Source: the human T2T-CHM13v2.0 reference genome, Homo sapiens
DNA length: 64,000 nucleotides
Strand: one strand, 5' to 3'
Assembly (NCBI RefSeq): GCF_009914755.1
Contig: NC_060937.1
Under the pieces are notes generated by a model, which was given only the letters and a program-made list of their open reading frames with translations, was not told the DNA's origin and did not search any database. Below, piece after piece: positions 3,204 to 9,099 of this stretch (the stretch's first letter is position 1; the number at the start of each line of letters is the position of its first letter). The position numbers and the translations under genes were made by a program.

Positions 3204-4176
3204 AACCCTGGCTCACCAGCTCTATAATTGCCCCAATGAGAAGAGAAAAAGAATGGATGTGATGAAGAAGCTACTCTATTCCTTTCACTCATATCCAATT
3301 GGCCATTTATATCCCATTTCACACCTAACTCCAAGGGAGGTTGTGAAATGTAGCTTCTAGCTACATGCCTGCTAAAATGAGGGCCTTATAACTAAAGAAA
3401 GACTACGGGAGCTGGTAAAAGTCTCAGCTATAGATTCCTGTGAGCCAGGGCCTCTGACCTGGCCCCTGTGATAGCTCATCAGCCAGTGGTAGCCCATAGC
3501 CTCCTGCGAAACATCTCTTTGCATACAAAGGTACTGTGATTCGATCTCCCCAACGATTTTTAATAATATCTTTTCCTGTTGAACAAAGGATTTAAGATCT
3601 GTGTGGTGATTTTAGTATGATTCTGGCCTGATGTCCTCAATTTACAGGATCTGAAGATGAAGAGAGTTGGGGACGTGACTCTCCCAGGTAAACAGCCACA
3701 TTTAGCAGACAGGACATTCCAAGGACTTAGAAGTTATCTCCCAGGGCTCTAGGGCAAGGCCAAACTCTGATTGCTTCCATGAGATAGCCAGTTTGTTAGT
3801 GGCAAAGCTAAGATTGGAACCCAGCATGCTGAAATTTCTTTCACTATATATGGGGTTTTAAAATGAATATGATAATCTAAAAATTATCCCACTAGAATGG
3901 AATACAGTGACACACTTAGCCTTATATGCCATTCTCTTATTTGGATAATGCAGTATTTTATTAATTTTTAGAATTACAGTGACACGCTGCTAACTCCTAC
4001 TTAACTTGTGGTTTTTACTTGTCTGGATCGATTTTATGCCATACATTTGCAAAGTAAGTTCTGTCCTAGCATGCATTTGTATAGATTTCTTCTTTCGTGA
4101 GTTACTTCTTGTACTCTGCATGTGTCACTTTTGAATTAGTTAAATTTGTAGTCCTCTTGGAGCCTGTTTAATATGA

Positions 4177-6085
<1,909 letters not shown>

Positions 6086-6113
<28 letters not shown>

Positions 6114-7336
6114 TGCCGTCTCTTCTTTCTCCTCCTAAGCAGCTGTCTTAGTCTCCTGAATTTTGATGTTCTACTTAACACCCTCATGTTCTTATGCATG
6201 TTGCCCTGCTGGAGGTGTCCTTCTCTTTGGGAAGCCTGACCCACCAACAGTGCCTCAGGAGATAGACATGGAAGCTTAGCTGGTGGGGGCCCCTCGTCTC
6301 TATCCCACCTCAGTTGCAGGGGAGGGGTCGGTTGCAGCTGCAGTGGTGGCCCCGACAGTTTTCTTTTGTGGGACCTGTGGCCGGCAGCTTTGGGTGGAGA
6401 AGACCTACTTGATCCAAGAGCTGCAGGATCCTTGGGCTGCATGTCCTCCCCCACCATCAGCAAGCCTGGAGAGCTGGGCAGGTAGTCTTTACCCAGCACC
6501 TTCAAGGCCGCCTTCTCTGGCCACAGGGAGCAGCCCGGAACTGGGGCAGGGAGCACTGTTGGAAGTGGGTCAGGCCTCCCAAAGGGAAGGATGCCTCCAG
6601 CAGGGCTGTGTGAACTGGCGACTCCATGGCCCTTGGAGTAGAAACTCACTGCATGCACCTGGGCCTTGTCAGTCTGGTTCTTTTCTGTCAAGCTCTTGAG
6701 GTGGACATTTCCCTCCAAGGGCCTGGGATTGTACCAGGAGGAAGTGAGGTTTCCCTGAGTCTCCAGGGGCCTAGAGGTGGAGGCTGCTTCCCCATTGCTA
6801 CAGGGGCCCCTTTTATTGTCCTCCTGCTCCTGGGTCTCTACCTGGTCTTTCACCTCCGTTGCTTCTTTGGGCTCTTCTGCCCTCACCTCCGTCTTCGGGA
6901 GCCTGGCTGGGATCACCTGCTCATCTAATGAAGGAAGTTGAAGGTTAAACTTGCCTCTGAGATGAGGGATCCTCATGGGGCTGAGGTGTCCAAACATCAT
7001 GGAGTTGCGAGCAGACAGCACGGGTTTCTTCCTTGAGGGGGTGCTCCAGACCACAGGAGGCAGGACCCTCTGTGGGGTGCCCGTGTTCCGAGGGATAAGA
7101 CACAGCCTCATAGGGTCGCTGTCCCACCTGACTGGAAAAGAAGGCCCAAGATGTCGCTGACGGTTGAAGAGGAGTGGGAAACGGCCCCAGATTCCCGGCG
7201 CAGGCACACGTGCAGGAGCCGTGGGGGCAGCCCGGCCAGCTGGGAAGGCCTCACGGACAAGACGAGCAAGTTGCTGATGGCATGGCCAGAACCTGCAGTG
7301 GGACCAGGAACAAAATACACTTAGTGAGTTGCCCAT
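6086..7336 (-). CDS. Intact intronless NPAP1/POM121-related ORF (UPF0607 family), 416 aa from ATG at 7336; retrogene or pseudogene
   Basis: No stops over 1251 nt. MGNSLS start, RKKPVLSARNS..FGH, GEAASTSR, KRKLS and WDRDEGPPPAKLPCLS resemble the recalled NPAP1 N-terminal half. Last codons (GRCGGSRL*) come from the Alu 5' end. Confidence 0.75.
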
Positions 7337-8731
7337 TTTGAGCGAGTTGTGCACAGACGAAACTAAGGGTCAGAAGTGGAGAGGATACTCCTAAGTCACC
7401 CACTTCTCTGTGGCCGGGTGCACACTGGGCATCTGGGAGTTTATGACATCACCATGGGGCTGGTGACAGAGCCAGGGTGTGGAGGAGTGCTTAGGAGCCC
7501 AGTGAGGGTGCCTACAAGAGGAGTCAAAGGGCAAAGGGTGAGACCCTTCCACCGGTCCAGCTGGACTCTAGCCTCAGGGACGTCCTGCTCCTGGGGGCAG
7601 GTGTGTGGCCCTGGATGGGCCCCCCTGTGGGGCTGTTGGGGGTGCGGGGCTGATCTGCCAGAGCCCTTCTGCCTGGCGCCTGGCCCAGGTGCTGGCTGGC
7701 ACCCAGTGGCCCTGTCTTGGCCAGCCCTGTCCCCCGGGTTACAGGGCCAGAACCTGGAAGCAGAGCGCAGGACCAGCCAGATCCCGCCAGGCTCCCCCGG
7801 GGCCTCTCCAGTGCCTCTGTGCCACCTGGAGCCAGGCCCGCCTTCTCCATGGCTGCCGTGGCCTCAAGGGCCACCAGCCTCGCTCCGCAGGTTTCCAAAG
7901 AGAGGACGCGGTGCCCTGACCTGACTGGGTGCGCCTCTTACCACATGCCTCCCTGGCAGGCAAGGTCTCCACTTTTTACAAATTTGCCTGAGACCATTCC
8001 TCAGGTCATTCAGGTGGTCATGGCCCAGCCAGGCTTTGAACCCGGGCTGTGCAATTCCACAGCTGGCGCTCTGGCCTGTGTGCCTCATGATCATGGATAC
8101 AGCATCTATTCTTATTTTTTCCTGTAGTCCTGGGGGTACTTAGCACCGTGGCATATCTGTAATAAGCACATGCACACCTTGAAGGAGGTCTTCACTTCAA
8201 CATACAAGTTGACCATGGCATGCTCTGGGCTCCAGTCCTCTACAAAGATGTAGGGCAGGAACTACCAGTTGTCAGCACAGCACCATCCCACATTGCTCTT
8301 CTAATGGAGCCTTTCACCCCAGATGTTCTTTCTCGTCTGATGGGAAGGATCCAAGTATGTAAAGATTATGTTCTAGATCAGCTTTGGTCTGTCCTAAAAG
8401 AAATTTGCCAGTGGATTATTCCATATGGATAAAAGTCAGTTTCTCTGGTCTTCCTGGAATGTGTCTAGAAAGCAAACACATTATTTACAAGTTCATAGTA
8501 GATCAATGTATTGGATTAAAATATGACAAACATAATTTGGTCATTGTGAGCATGCCAGCTCAGTCAACTATTCACCACACATGATGCCCTAAATATAACT
8601 CTAGGTTTTCTTATGCCCAAGAGAGGGACATACTCTTGGGTGTCTGGACTAGGGAAACATGTATGAAAAACCATTTGGCCACTCTACATCTTGTTATTGG
8701 AGAATCGAAACCATCTATATTCAAAGATATT

Positions 8732-8785
8732 ATTAAAAGGCAAGAAGTTAACTTCAAAATAAATAAATAAATAAAAATAAATAAA
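8732..8785 (+). other. PolyA signal (ATTAAA 8732-8737) and decayed polyA tail of the chimeric retrocopy
   Basis: ATTAAA about 19 nt before an (AAAT)n tail at 8756-8785, followed by ACATCAAACCC (8786-8796), identical to 4188-4198. Confidence 0.85.
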
Positions 8786-9099
8786 ACATCAAACCCTGGG
8801 ACTAAATAACAATTTTACTAAAGTTAATATGCATTATACCCATTCTACACATACTTTTAATTTACTATATCACTACTGTAAATAATACATTAAATCATCA
8901 TTTACTCCTTTAGAAGTTATATCATTTTCCATATTTTGCTATTTTGACTATGTATTCTAATATTTTCTCTGGAAGTATAGCTTGTTGGTCTACAATTCTA
9001 GACTTGTTCTCCTCTAAATGTGGCTCCCCTTTTCACTTTTAGGCTTTTCCATAAATACTTTTATCTTACATTTGTGTGTAGAACTATATTCTCAATGCA

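What the first reader, a model, noticed from the sequence alone, without database searches (positions are those of the whole stretch)
6086..8755. Intact NPAP1-like ORF carried backwards together with its own upstream region
Seen: a 416-codon open frame on the minus strand, opposite to the retrocopy's polyA direction, with ~1.4 kb of upstream sequence (7337-8755, partly GC-rich) inside the TSDs. Downstream on the same strand are an Alu and the SVA2 ATTAAA/polyA (4736-4708). Inference: retroposing an antisense read-through RNA copies an intronless gene with its promoter and a polyA site, avoiding the usual promoter loss of retrocopies. This would be a route to expression-competent gene family expansion.
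Basis: partly seen in the sequence, partly recalled or inferred. Interest (0 to 1): 0.8.

Follow-up and report, generated by a model that had tools for sequence, protein, structure and literature searches.

The report
Backwards gene copied inside SPTLC1 retrocopy
This stretch is one of nine retrocopies of an aberrant SPTLC1 transcript that carried a small NPAP1-like gene backwards with its own upstream DNA, which explains how that gene family spread, but the copied genes have since drifted like pseudogenes.

Summary
Observation confirmed. A 416-codon POM121/NPAP1-type ORF (6086-7336, minus) lies backwards inside a 4.58-kb plus-strand retrocopy (4199-8782) with 14-nt TSDs and a poly(A) tail after ATTAAA.

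New here: the 5' end is SPTLC1 exons 1+2+3 spliced together, then joined by a canonical GT-AG splice to an antisense-Alu acceptor. The source locus sits in SPTLC1 intron 3 on chr9. The genome holds nine full-length retrocopies with the same junction and the same cleavage zone. Eight of the nine have TSD-like flanking repeats (six clear and abutting). One older 5'-truncated retrocopy and three DNA-level copies also exist. Region 7337-8662 is homologous to the 5' flank of NPAP1, and the two ATGs align, so the gene unit did travel with its upstream DNA.

Function is not supported. ORF and flank change at the same rate. Private N/S/nonsense changes are 116/39/4 against 108/46/5 expected (omega about 1.2). 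Five of 11 frames are intact against 2.6 expected (P = 0.09). The flank is CpG-poor. Transcription could not be tested.

The copying route is supported; expression competence is unproven. My literature searches found no description of this mechanism.

The parts
4185..4198 (+). 5' target-site duplication (AACACATCAAACCC)
   Evidence: family D6: 15 nt with 1 mismatch, matching 8782-8796. It abuts the first base of the insert.
4199..4502 (+). SPTLC1 exons 1, 2 and 3, spliced (about 4201-4300, 4298-4408 and 4406-4502; the annotated SPTLC1P5)
   Evidence: the three sub-blocks map to three separate places on chr9, minus strand (104281800-899 at 93%, 104278941-9051 at 98%, 104275227-323 at 97%). The introns are therefore removed.
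4503..4707 (-). 3' two-thirds of an Alu (sense on the minus strand). Read on the plus strand, it supplied the splice acceptor for SPTLC1 exon 3
   Evidence: the source has a T20 run followed by GAG|ACGGAGTC, 2,268 nt downstream of the exon 3 donor TTTCAGG|gtaaat. The retrocopy junction is TTTCAGG+ACGGAGTC in the paralogues and TTTTAGG+ACGGAGTC here; the piece maps to positions 91-304 of a full Alu elsewhere in the window.
4708..4812 (-). SVA2 3' end: unique sequence, ATTAAA (4736-4731) and an A8 run (4715-4708) on the minus strand
   Evidence: sequence; this 99-nt stretch is a dispersed repeat, with 186 candidates and 40 scored at 95-100% identity (the 100% row is the window itself). The name SVA2 rests on the 39/40-bp units plus a unique 3' end as described in PMC4432496. 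No Repbase comparison was possible.
4800..6030 (-). SVA2 VNTR, about 31 units of 39/40 bp
   Evidence: families D1 and D2 (spacing 40/39). PMC4432496 states that SVA2 has dominant units of 40 and 39 bp. The length of this interval varies between paralogues from about 128 to 1,336 bp.
6031..6113 (-). 5' 83 nt of the same Alu, split from the rest by the SVA2 insertion; holds the last ~8 codons and the stop codon of the ORF
   Evidence: it maps to positions ~25-74+ of a full Alu, complementary to piece 4503-4707. An imperfect duplication of about 13 nt lies at the two SVA2 junctions (my reading of the printout).
6086..7336 (-). UPF0607 / NPAP1-like ORF, 416 codons (annotated LOC100129307)
   Evidence: ORF. 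(PF15229, E 2e-21). (43% identity over 385 aa to the N-terminal third of the 1156-aa NPAP1 ORF). (the ATGs align).
7337..8662 (-). 5' flank of the carried gene, homologous to the 5' flank of NPAP1 (putative promoter/5'UTR region; CpG-poor)
   Evidence: window 8662..7998 matches the NPAP1 locus at 3850-4517 (76.7%), and 7986..6253 matches 4886-6624, with the NPAP1 ATG at 5535. CpG o/e 0.25-0.29. Promoter activity was not tested.
8732..8737 (+). ATTAAA poly(A) signal used by the carrier RNA
   Evidence: all ten retrocopies (nine young ones plus L042) switch to A-runs 13-22 nt downstream of it. The three DNA-level copies continue into shared genomic sequence.
8756..8782 (+). Poly(A) tail of the retrocopy, decayed to an (AAAT)n-like run
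8783..8796 (+). 3' target-site duplication (AAAACATCAAACCC)
   Evidence: family D6.

Best explanation
Window 4199-8782 is a full-length, L1-type (target-primed) retrocopy of an aberrant SPTLC1 transcript.

Source and carrier RNA:
- The source lies on chr9. An NPAP1-type intronless gene (UPF0607) sits inside SPTLC1 intron 3, antisense to SPTLC1.
- The 3' end of that nested gene is truncated by an Alu, and an SVA2 element later inserted into the Alu.
- SPTLC1 transcription produced an RNA in which exons 1-3 were spliced normally.
- Exon 3 was then spliced to the AG acceptor behind the poly-T of that antisense Alu.
- The next 4.3 kb of intron stayed unspliced, and the RNA was cleaved after an intronic ATTAAA.
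- That retained stretch contains, backwards, the SVA2, the whole UPF0607 ORF and about 1.4 kb of its 5' flank.

Copying:
- L1 machinery reverse-transcribed this RNA into at least nine dispersed sites in one burst, and once earlier.
- Each insertion received a complete antisense gene unit: 5' flank, ORF and an SVA2 poly(A) signal.

What is shown and what is inferred:
- Shown: the anatomy, the source, the junction and the repeated copying.
- Inferred: that L1 was the machinery (from the TSDs, the poly(A) tails and A-rich target sites); that the 5' flank contains the promoter (from homology with NPAP1 only); and the age, roughly 10-20 Myr (from terminal branches of 0.013-0.026 and recalled primate substitution rates).

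Since insertion the ORFs have evolved as neutral sequence. This window's frame is open because the copy is young, not because it is maintained.
For: Structure:
- TSD, poly(A) tail and ATTAAA.
- Exons 1-3 are spliced and map to three chr9 blocks directly upstream of L034.
- The donor TTTCAGG|gtaaat and the acceptor T20-GAG|ACGGAGTC, 2,268 nt apart in L034, reproduce the junction.
- One search found 11 copies at 96-100% identity over 2.67 kb (36 of 36 candidates scored).
- Nine of them start within 31 nt of each other in exon 1 and end in A-runs within 9 nt of each other.
- TSDs: six clear and abutting (WIN, L032, L033, L035, L036, L038); one of 14 nt with 2 mismatches, seen by eye (L040); one of 10 nt separated by a 51-nt spacer (L031); none found in L039.
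- L034, L037 and L041 continue into shared genomic DNA and keep the full Alu poly-T.
- L042 is an older 5'-truncated retrocopy with the same cleavage site and the TSD AAGAAAGAGTG. It branches before the split between L041 and the young copies, with 93% support.
- The tree is star-like: internal branches are at most 0.003.
- The gene unit is complete: the NPAP1 ATG aligns with 7336/7337, and the flank homology runs to 8662.

Neutrality:
- Private non-CpG substitution rate is 0.0103 in the ORF and 0.0092 in the flank.
- Private N/S/nonsense changes are 116/39/4 against 108.3/45.6/5.1 expected; chi-square p = 0.42.
- Private indels: 7 in the ORF and 11 in the flank.
- NG86 omega averages 1.16 over the 10 pairs of intact copies, and is 0.84-1.17 against L041.
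- ORF survival: 5 of 11 intact against 2.59 expected, P(>=5) = 0.092. For this copy alone P = 0.31.
Against: - ORF retention is numerically about twice the neutral expectation (5 against 2.6).
- In-frame stop codons number 3, in 2 of 11 copies. About 8.5 nonsense changes would be expected if the ML branch lengths are multiplied by the 3.2% nonsense fraction. This is a mild deficit.
- An earlier count against the majority state gave 2 nonsense changes against 8.9 expected.
- The ORF/flank ratio of private changes differs between copies (p = 0.008). The source copy has 4 in the ORF and 19 in the flank, which could mean past constraint on the parental gene.
- RefSeq labels the locus a transcribed pseudogene (hub annotation).
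- The name appears in a plasma-peptide list, although this is not copy-specific.
- All nine young retrocopies are full length, which is unusual for a passive 4.6-kb processed pseudogene and hints at special mobilisation or selection.
- Only one human haplotype was examined.
Confidence: 0.72

Rival explanations
1. The retrocopies arrived with a working promoter and poly(A) site and are, or were for a time, expressed NPAP1-like genes. They may be testis- or brain-specific and fast-evolving, so the route produced functional family expansion.
For: - The whole unit is present: 1.3 kb of flank homologous to the NPAP1 5' flank, the aligned ATG, and an SVA2 ATTAAA downstream.
- 5 of 11 frames are intact against 2.6 expected, and in-frame stops are few.
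- Omega is slightly above 1. NPAP1 is reported to be under strong positive selection and expressed in testis and brain (PMC3942032, passages), so omega near 1 could hide a mix of positive and purifying selection.
- RefSeq labels the locus 'transcribed pseudogene' (hub annotation).
Against: - Rates are equal in the ORF and the flank. N/S/nonsense counts fit neutrality (p = 0.42), and indels are as frequent in the ORF as in the flank.
- Three of nine retrocopies, and the source copy, are frameshifted; a fourth retrocopy, L038, has a premature stop at codon 408.
- The flank is CpG-poor, o/e 0.25-0.29.
- The ORF-survival excess is not significant (P = 0.09).
- No copy-specific expression evidence was found in 9 literature searches.
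Confidence: 0.2
2. The composite behaved as a short-lived non-autonomous retrotransposon. The antisense-Alu plus VNTR module right behind the trapped SPTLC1 exons gave the RNA privileged access to L1 proteins, as in SVA-type VNTR composites. On this view the gene was a passenger of an efficient vehicle rather than of an ordinary processed pseudogene.
For: - All nine young retrocopies are full length at 4.6 kb, with 5' ends within 31 nt of each other. No young 5'-truncated copy appears among the 36 scored candidates.
- Every genomic match to SPTLC1 exons 1-3 outside the real gene and its chr9 duplicate is one of these composites (13 of 13 candidates scored). No ordinary SPTLC1 retrocopy retaining the 5' exons exists.
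- The topology (exons, antisense Alu, VNTR, 3' domain, pA) parallels SVA, PVA and FVA. PMC4432496 analysed only 7 FVA elements, so a 9-copy family is not out of scale.
- Host exons spliced into an antisense-Alu acceptor and then amplified is the SVA-F1/MAST2 pattern (recalled, not read here).
Against: - The VNTR is inverted relative to the Alu-like part when compared with SVA (the SVA layout is recalled).
- There is no CT-hexamer 5' end.
- The star tree points to one master locus driven by the SPTLC1 promoter, not to self-propagating copies.
- Nine copies could reflect high germline abundance of one isoform.
- Whether 5'-truncated ordinary SPTLC1 pseudogenes exist could not be settled (only 9 of 54 candidates scored, parent genes unassignable).
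Confidence: 0.25
3. The block was copied at the DNA level (segmental duplication), or by a minus-strand RNA such as a UPF0607 mRNA reading through, or SVA2-driven transduction.
For: - DNA-level copies of the same region do exist on chr9 (L037 and L041).
- SVA-mediated transduction of whole genes is known for AMAC1 (one passage in the review PMC9917352).
Against: - This copy and eight others have spliced SPTLC1 exons at one end and a poly(A) tail at the other. Both are in plus orientation, and most copies are bounded by TSDs.
- A minus-strand RNA cannot carry SPTLC1 exons spliced in the plus sense.
- The SVA2 poly(A) lies internally, at 4708-4715.
Confidence: 0.02

Closest known systems
PMCHL1 (retroposed antisense PMCH mRNA, primates)
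   Same: An RNA antisense to a gene was retroposed, so gene sequence sits backwards relative to the retrocopy's poly(A). It is primate-specific, and later transcripts are found in testis and brain with doubtful coding capacity (PMC2621205, abstract and passages).
   Different: PMCHL1 was a single event that carried part of a gene. Here a host-gene read-through RNA carried a whole nested intronless gene with about 1.4 kb of 5' flank and a poly(A) signal, and was copied ten times.
SVA-mediated 3' transduction of the AMAC1 gene family
   Same: Whole gene units were multiplied to several chromosomes by L1-driven retroposition of a long read-through RNA (one passage in review PMC9917352; the primary paper is recalled and was not read).
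   Different: There the vehicle is an SVA read through in sense, with the gene downstream in the same orientation. Here the vehicle is a host-gene transcript, and both the SVA2 and the gene are antisense passengers.
SVA-F1 / MAST2 exon trapping (5' transduction groups of SVA)
   Different: Hundreds of SVA-orientation copies form a subfamily there. Here there are nine copies from one master, an inverted VNTR, three trapped exons, and a 2.7-kb gene-bearing 3' domain.
Nested-gene transcriptional interference (Kaer et al. 2011)
   Same: Nested genes and intronic repeats induce forced exonization and cryptic polyadenylation of the host gene's transcripts (PMC3192792, abstract). This is the kind of truncated host isoform that served as carrier here.
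   Different: That work concerns RNA processing only and does not follow the isoforms into retroposition. Their prematurely terminated transcripts end upstream of the nested gene, whereas this carrier runs through it.
UPF0607 / NPAP1 / NPAP1L family (Neumann et al. 2014)
   Same: The ORF belongs to this POM121-derived intronless family. The paper notes that UPF0607 is primate-restricted and duplicated (PMC3942032, passages).
   Different: In that paper's main text, 'SPTLC1' and 'SVA' occur 0 times, and the one 'antisense' hit concerns UBE3A. The paper says only that the genes 'duplicated or retrotransposed'. Its supplementary tables were not opened.

Membership tests
L1-mediated (target-primed) processed retrocopy | Target-site duplications flanking the insert | tested here: met
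   This copy has 14-15 nt with 1 mismatch. Across the nine copies: six clear and abutting, two imperfect or offset, one without.
L1-mediated (target-primed) processed retrocopy | 3' poly(A) tail shortly after a poly(A) signal | tested here: met
   ATTAAA at 8732-8737 and an A-rich tail at 8756-8782. All ten retrocopies use the same zone.
L1-mediated (target-primed) processed retrocopy | Introns of the parent removed | tested here: met
   Exons 1-3 are contiguous here but lie 2.7-3.6 kb apart on chr9. The fourth junction uses a GT donor and an AG acceptor 2,268 nt apart.
L1-mediated (target-primed) processed retrocopy | A/T-rich endonuclease-type target site at the 5' edge of the TSD | tested here: met
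   My reading of the printout: the TSDs begin with A-rich runs preceded by T-rich bases, for example ...gcttttt|AAAATTAACC and ...gactt|AAGAAAAACT. The consensus for the L1 nick site is recalled.
POM121 / NPAP1 / UPF0607 protein family | POM121-family domain | tested here: met
   PF15229, E 2e-21, 77.3 bits against a cut-off of 27.
POM121 / NPAP1 / UPF0607 protein family | Collinear homology with NPAP1, including the start codon; intronless | tested here: met
   43% identity over 385 aa, the ATGs align, and the ORF covers about the N-terminal third of NPAP1's 1156 aa.
Functional retrogene | Purifying (or clear positive) selection on the ORF after duplication | tested here: not met
   Omega is about 1.2 and not different from 1 (p = 0.42). 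The ORF rate equals the flank rate.
Functional retrogene | ORF retention above the neutral expectation | tested here: inconclusive
   5 of 11 against 2.59 expected, P = 0.092.
Functional retrogene | Own transcription start and transcripts | not testable with these tools
   No expression data are available here. The RefSeq NR model equals the ORF span. The literature hits are list entries only.
SVA2 element | VNTR of 39/40-bp units plus a family-specific unique 3' end, poly(A) and TSD | tested here: met
   Spacing 40/39 against the description in PMC4432496. The 3' end is multi-copy. An A8 run and an imperfect ~13-nt duplication within the split Alu are present. No comparison with the Repbase consensus was possible.
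VNTR-composite retrotransposons (SVA/LAVA/PVA/FVA) | CT-rich 5' end, Alu-like region and VNTR in the SVA orientation | tested here: not met
   The 5' end is SPTLC1 exons, and the VNTR is inverted relative to the antisense-Alu part (the SVA layout is recalled). It is therefore not a member. Whether it is mobilised like one is open.
Retrotransposon 3' transduction (AMAC1 type) | Retrotransposon in sense at the 5' end, with its poly(A) signal read through | tested here: not met
   The SVA2 is antisense to the retroposed RNA and lies internally.

The most novel reading that the evidence does not exclude
The SPTLC1-exons / antisense-Alu / VNTR / UPF0607 composite was a small, transient, SVA-like non-autonomous retrotransposon. 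L1 mobilised it preferentially, which is why all nine young copies are full length while no ordinary SPTLC1 retrocopy keeps the 5' exons. Because its cargo lies antisense, every jump delivered a promoter-bearing, polyadenylation-competent NPAP1-like gene. At least some copies are transcribed from their own carried promoter in germ cells or brain.
Probability: 0.15. Interest if true: 0.75.

Novelty: new variant of a known kind. Interest (0 to 1): 0.5.

Why it matters
Retrocopies normally arrive without a promoter. Here a nested intronless gene lying antisense in an intron was copied whole, with its flank, ORF and poly(A) signal, because the host gene's aberrant transcript served as the vehicle.

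This explains, at base-pair resolution, how the primate UPF0607 branch of the NPAP1/POM121 family multiplied to many chromosomes. It also links two separately annotated pseudogene series (the SPTLC1P copies and the UPF0607 LOCs) as two ends of one insert.

The nine near-identical promoter-plus-ORF units were dropped into nine chromatin contexts at about the same time. They form a natural experiment on whether carrying a promoter changes a retrocopy's fate. On present sequence evidence it did not rescue them from neutral decay.

Tried and rejected
- **Nonsense deficit against the majority state.** This suggested 2 nonsense changes against 8.9 expected, with omega 1.4. However, 59 of the 222 changed sites were hit in more than one copy, so the counts were not independent. 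The private-change count gave 4 against 5.1. I treat the earlier deficit as largely an artefact, and the milder deficit against ML branch lengths as unresolved.
- **Event counting on reconstructed ancestors.** Pairwise and private-difference counts were used instead.
- **Ordinary SPTLC1 processed pseudogenes.** A Pfam PF00155 sweep of the genome scored only 9 of 54 candidates and cannot assign parent genes. The result is inconclusive.
- **Former coding sequence.** I considered that 7337-8755 might be decayed NPAP1 coding sequence rather than flank. This is rejected because the NPAP1 ATG aligns with 7336/7337.
- **Template-switch chimera.** Rejected, because the source locus supplies a canonical donor and acceptor that reproduce the junction.
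- **Literature.** Nine searches over open-access PMC and bioRxiv found no paper linking SPTLC1 with UPF0607, SVA2 or VNTR elements, and none describing this carrier mechanism. Subscription-only papers are outside that library; these include the primary SVA exon-trapping, SVA2 and AMAC1 papers. The supplements of Neumann 2014 were not opened.
- **Plus-strand ORFs of 170-189 aa inside the VNTR.** These are stop-free repeat units, not genes.
Full report
**1. Observation**

One search finds a single ATG-to-stop ORF of 416 codons at 6086..7336 on the minus strand. Pfam assigns it to the POM121 family (PF15229, E 2e-21). The sequence and the repeat search (family D6) show that it lies inside a 4,584-bp insert (4199-8782). 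The insert is bounded by AACACATCAAACCC (4185-4198) and AAAACATCAAACCC (8783-8796). Its plus-strand 3' end is an A-rich tail (8756-8782), which begins 19 nt after the end of an ATTAAA (8732-8737). The ORF is therefore antisense to the retrocopy, with 1.4 kb of its own upstream side enclosed.

**2. Anatomy of the insert, read on the plus strand**

- **Positions 4199-4502.** These match SPTLC1, but as three blocks lying 2.7-3.6 kb apart on chr9: 104,281,800-899, 104,278,941-9,051 and 104,275,227-323, minus strand. They are exons 1, 2 and 3 spliced, not one exon.
- **Positions 4503-4707.** This is the 3' two-thirds of an Alu in antisense.
- **Positions 4708-4812.** This is the antisense 3' end of an SVA2. 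On the minus strand it reads unique sequence, ATTAAA, then A8. The stretch is a dispersed repeat: 186 candidates, 40 scored at 95-100% identity, the best being the window itself.
- **Positions about 4800-6030.** This is a VNTR of 39/40-bp units. That matches the SVA2 unit sizes given in PMC4432496 (passages).
- **Positions 6031-6113.** This is the remaining 5' 83 nt of the same Alu. The two Alu pieces map to complementary parts of a full Alu elsewhere in the window. An imperfect duplication of about 13 nt lies at the SVA2 junctions. The last ~8 codons and the stop codon of the ORF lie in this Alu piece.

The Alu assignments rest on my recalled knowledge of the Alu sequence, supported and by the many 72-90% hits of 4493-4734 in every locus.

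**3. Source locus**

L034 (chr9:104.27 Mb) contains the same Alu-SVA2-ORF-flank block in the orientation of SPTLC1, but differs from the retrocopies in three ways:

- No exons are attached to it.
- The Alu is complete, with a 20-nt poly-T.
- Genomic sequence continues past the ATTAAA.

SPTLC1 exon 3 lies 2,268 nt upstream of the Alu and ends TTTCAGG|gtaaat. The Alu offers (T)20GAG|ACGGAGTC. Joining the two gives TTTCAGGACGGAGTC, which is the junction seen in the retrocopies (TTTTAGG... in this window after one substitution). The carrier was therefore an SPTLC1 transcript with exons 1-3 spliced normally, exon 3 spliced to an Alu exon in intron 3, then 4.3 kb left unspliced and cleaved after an intronic ATTAAA. 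Nested genes and intronic repeats are reported to force this kind of exonization and cryptic polyadenylation in host transcripts (PMC3192792, abstract). Whether the nested gene's own activity promoted the isoform here is speculation.

**4. A family of copies**

A search of the genome with 6086-8755 found 11 copies at 96-100% identity over the whole 2.67 kb (36 of 36 candidates scored).

- **Nine are retrocopies**: this one, chr2, chr6 (two), chr1, chr8, chr10, chr9:28 Mb and chr16.
  - All start within 31 nt of each other in exon 1.
  - All share the exon 3-Alu junction.
  - All turn into A-runs within 9 nt of each other.
  - TSDs: six are clear and abutting (11-18 nt). L040 has 14 nt with 2 mismatches, seen by eye. 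L031 has 10 nt separated from the first SPTLC1 base by 51 unassigned nt. L039 has none within 400 nt.
- **Two of the eleven are DNA-level copies**: the source L034, and L037 at chr9:94.6 Mb. L037 is a >8.7-kb duplicate at 94-95% identity that includes an exon 3 copy.
- **Older relatives**:
  - L041 (chr9:100 Mb, 90%) is an older DNA-level copy.
  - L042 (chr8:36.6 Mb, 88%) is an older retrocopy that begins inside the VNTR. It uses the same cleavage site and has the TSD AAGAAAGAGTG. It branches before the split between L041 and the young copies, with 93% support.
- **Consequence**: the antisense-carrier event happened in at least two epochs.
- **Tree**: the young copies form a star. Terminal branches are 0.013-0.026, and internal branches are at most 0.003 with 20-80% support. 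This indicates one master locus and one burst.
- **Age**: with recalled primate substitution rates, the burst falls roughly 10-20 Myr ago. This is an inference and was not tested against other primates.
- **Truncation**: no young 5'-truncated copy appeared.

**5. Is the enclosed upstream region the gene's own?**

Yes, by homology. Against the NPAP1 locus on chr15, which holds an ORF of 1156 aa, window 7986..6253 aligns with NPAP1 4886-6624 and window 8662..7998 with 3850-4517 (76.7%). The NPAP1 ATG at 5535 falls on window ~7337. The two start codons are therefore homologous, and 7337-8662 corresponds to NPAP1's 5' flank, not to decayed coding sequence. The UPF0607 ORF equals about the N-terminal third of NPAP1 (43% identity over 385 aa).

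The flank is not a CpG island: o/e is 0.25-0.29, at GC 0.55-0.68 between 7337 and 7950. Promoter activity was not and could not be tested. The RefSeq NR model coincides with the ORF, so it gives no TSS.

**6. Are the copies maintained?**

| Measure | ORF | Flank or neutral expectation |
|---|---|---|
| Private non-CpG substitutions per site per copy | 0.0103 | 0.0092 (flank) |
| Private indel events | 7 | 11 (flank; one is an alignment-edge effect) |
| Private N / S / nonsense | 116 / 39 / 4 | 108.3 / 45.6 / 5.1 expected from the observed CpG and transition/transversion spectrum; omega 1.25, chi-square p = 0.42 |
| NG86 omega | mean 1.16 over 10 pairs of intact copies; 0.84-1.17 against L041; 0.72 against NPAP1 | neutral value is 1 |
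| Copies with an intact 416-codon frame | 5 of 11 | 2.59 expected, P(>=5) = 0.092; 0.31 for this copy alone |

Frame status of the 11 young copies:

- Five keep 416 codons: this one, chr2, chr1, chr8 and chr10.
- One (L038, chr9:28 Mb) stops at codon 408.
- Five are frameshifted: L032, L034 (the source), L037, L039 and L040. L037 also carries two in-frame stops.

The simulation used the ML branch lengths and the flank's frameshift rate.

Points in the other direction:

- Only 3 in-frame stop codons occur, in 2 copies. About 8.5 would be expected from the ML branch lengths multiplied by the nonsense fraction.
- The earlier majority-based count gave 2 against 8.9, but it is weakened because 59 of the 222 changed sites are shared between copies.
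- The ORF/flank ratio of private changes is heterogeneous (p = 0.008). The source has 4 in the ORF against 19 in the flank, and this copy has 12 against 3.

Overall the data fit neutral decay, with at most a faint, non-significant excess of open frames.

**7. Comparison with what is known**

- The UPF0607 group is described as primate-restricted, intronless and related to NPAP1 and POM121 (PMC3942032). In that paper's main text, 'SPTLC1' and 'SVA' occur 0 times, and its one 'antisense' hit concerns UBE3A.
- Retroposition of an antisense RNA has a precedent in PMCHL1 (PMC2621205).
- Multiplication of whole genes by read-through retroposition has a precedent in the AMAC1/SVA case (one passage of the review PMC9917352).
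- Host exons trapped on an antisense-Alu acceptor and then amplified is the SVA-F1/MAST2 pattern (recalled).
- Nine searches of open-access PMC and bioRxiv found nothing linking SPTLC1 to UPF0607, SVA2 or VNTR elements, and nothing describing a host transcript carrying a nested antisense gene unit into multiple retrocopies.
- Paywalled primary papers on SVA and SVA2, and the supplements of Neumann 2014, were not seen and could bear on this.

**8. Verdict**

The copying mechanism is right and now anchored to its source. It accounts for 9 of the 11 young UPF0607 copies, plus an older one. The claim that the route yields expression-competent genes is untested for transcription and unsupported by sequence evolution. 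I rate it a new variant of a known kind (retroposition of an aberrant host transcript with an antisense nested gene as cargo), of moderate interest. The unexplained 9-of-9 full-length copies keep open a retrotransposon-like reading.

Noticed in passing
L034 (chr9:104.27 Mb, source) compared with window 6086-8755: Private changes are distributed unevenly between ORF and flank across the copies (chi-square p = 0.008). The source copy has 4 in the ORF and 19 in the flank, evenly spread. This window's copy has 12 and 3. This could mean past constraint on the parental ORF only, even though it now carries a 1-nt insertion.
   Followed up: partly
window 7116-7297; L031 equivalent 7117-7196: Eight of this copy's 12 private ORF changes, and six of L031's 12, cluster in the first ~75 codons (7116-7297 here; 7117-7196 in L031). 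This may be a local mutation hot spot or a rapidly changing N-terminus. Eleven of this copy's 12 private ORF changes are nonsynonymous.
   Followed up: partly
window 4800-6030 and paralogues L031-L040: The interval holding the VNTR ranges from about 128 bp (L035, VNTR almost entirely lost) to 1,336 bp among copies made from one source. The source itself now has 770 bp (positions).
   Followed up: no
window 8666-8755: The last ~90 nt of the retrocopy, which include the ATTAAA used by the carrier RNA, match many loci on other chromosomes at 76-81% identity. The poly(A) signal therefore seems to be supplied by an old interspersed repeat. The family was not identified.
   Followed up: no
L031 (chr2), 51 nt upstream of the first SPTLC1 base: The only good TSD (TTTTCAGACT, 10 nt) is separated from the retrocopy's 5' end by 51 nt of sequence that matches neither SPTLC1 nor the 3' flank. 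This may be extra nucleotides or a small 5' rearrangement at insertion.
   Followed up: no
L039 (chr6:23.7 Mb): This full-length retrocopy has a poly(A) tail but no detectable TSD within 400 nt. Possible causes are a target-site deletion or an endonuclease-independent insertion.
   Followed up: no
L041 (chr9:100.01 Mb): The older DNA-level paralogue carries a 498-codon ORF and a further Alu inserted into the SVA2 3' end, with its own short duplication. An even older relative, L043 (78%), lies about 30 kb away.
   Followed up: no
window 7998-8662 compared with the NPAP1 locus (L046): The distal 5' flank is more similar to NPAP1 (76.7%) than the ORF and proximal flank are (64%; dS 0.64). Possible reasons are a lower mutation rate in this AT-richer, CpG-poor stretch, or conservation of a regulatory block. 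The RefSeq 'silencer' at 7878-8056 lies next to it.
   Followed up: no
window 4255-4611 (+): A 118-codon plus-strand ORF joins the first ~82 residues of SPTLC1 (starting at an internal Met) to an Alu-derived tail. It is the reading frame of the aberrant carrier isoform. There is no evidence that it is used.
   Followed up: no
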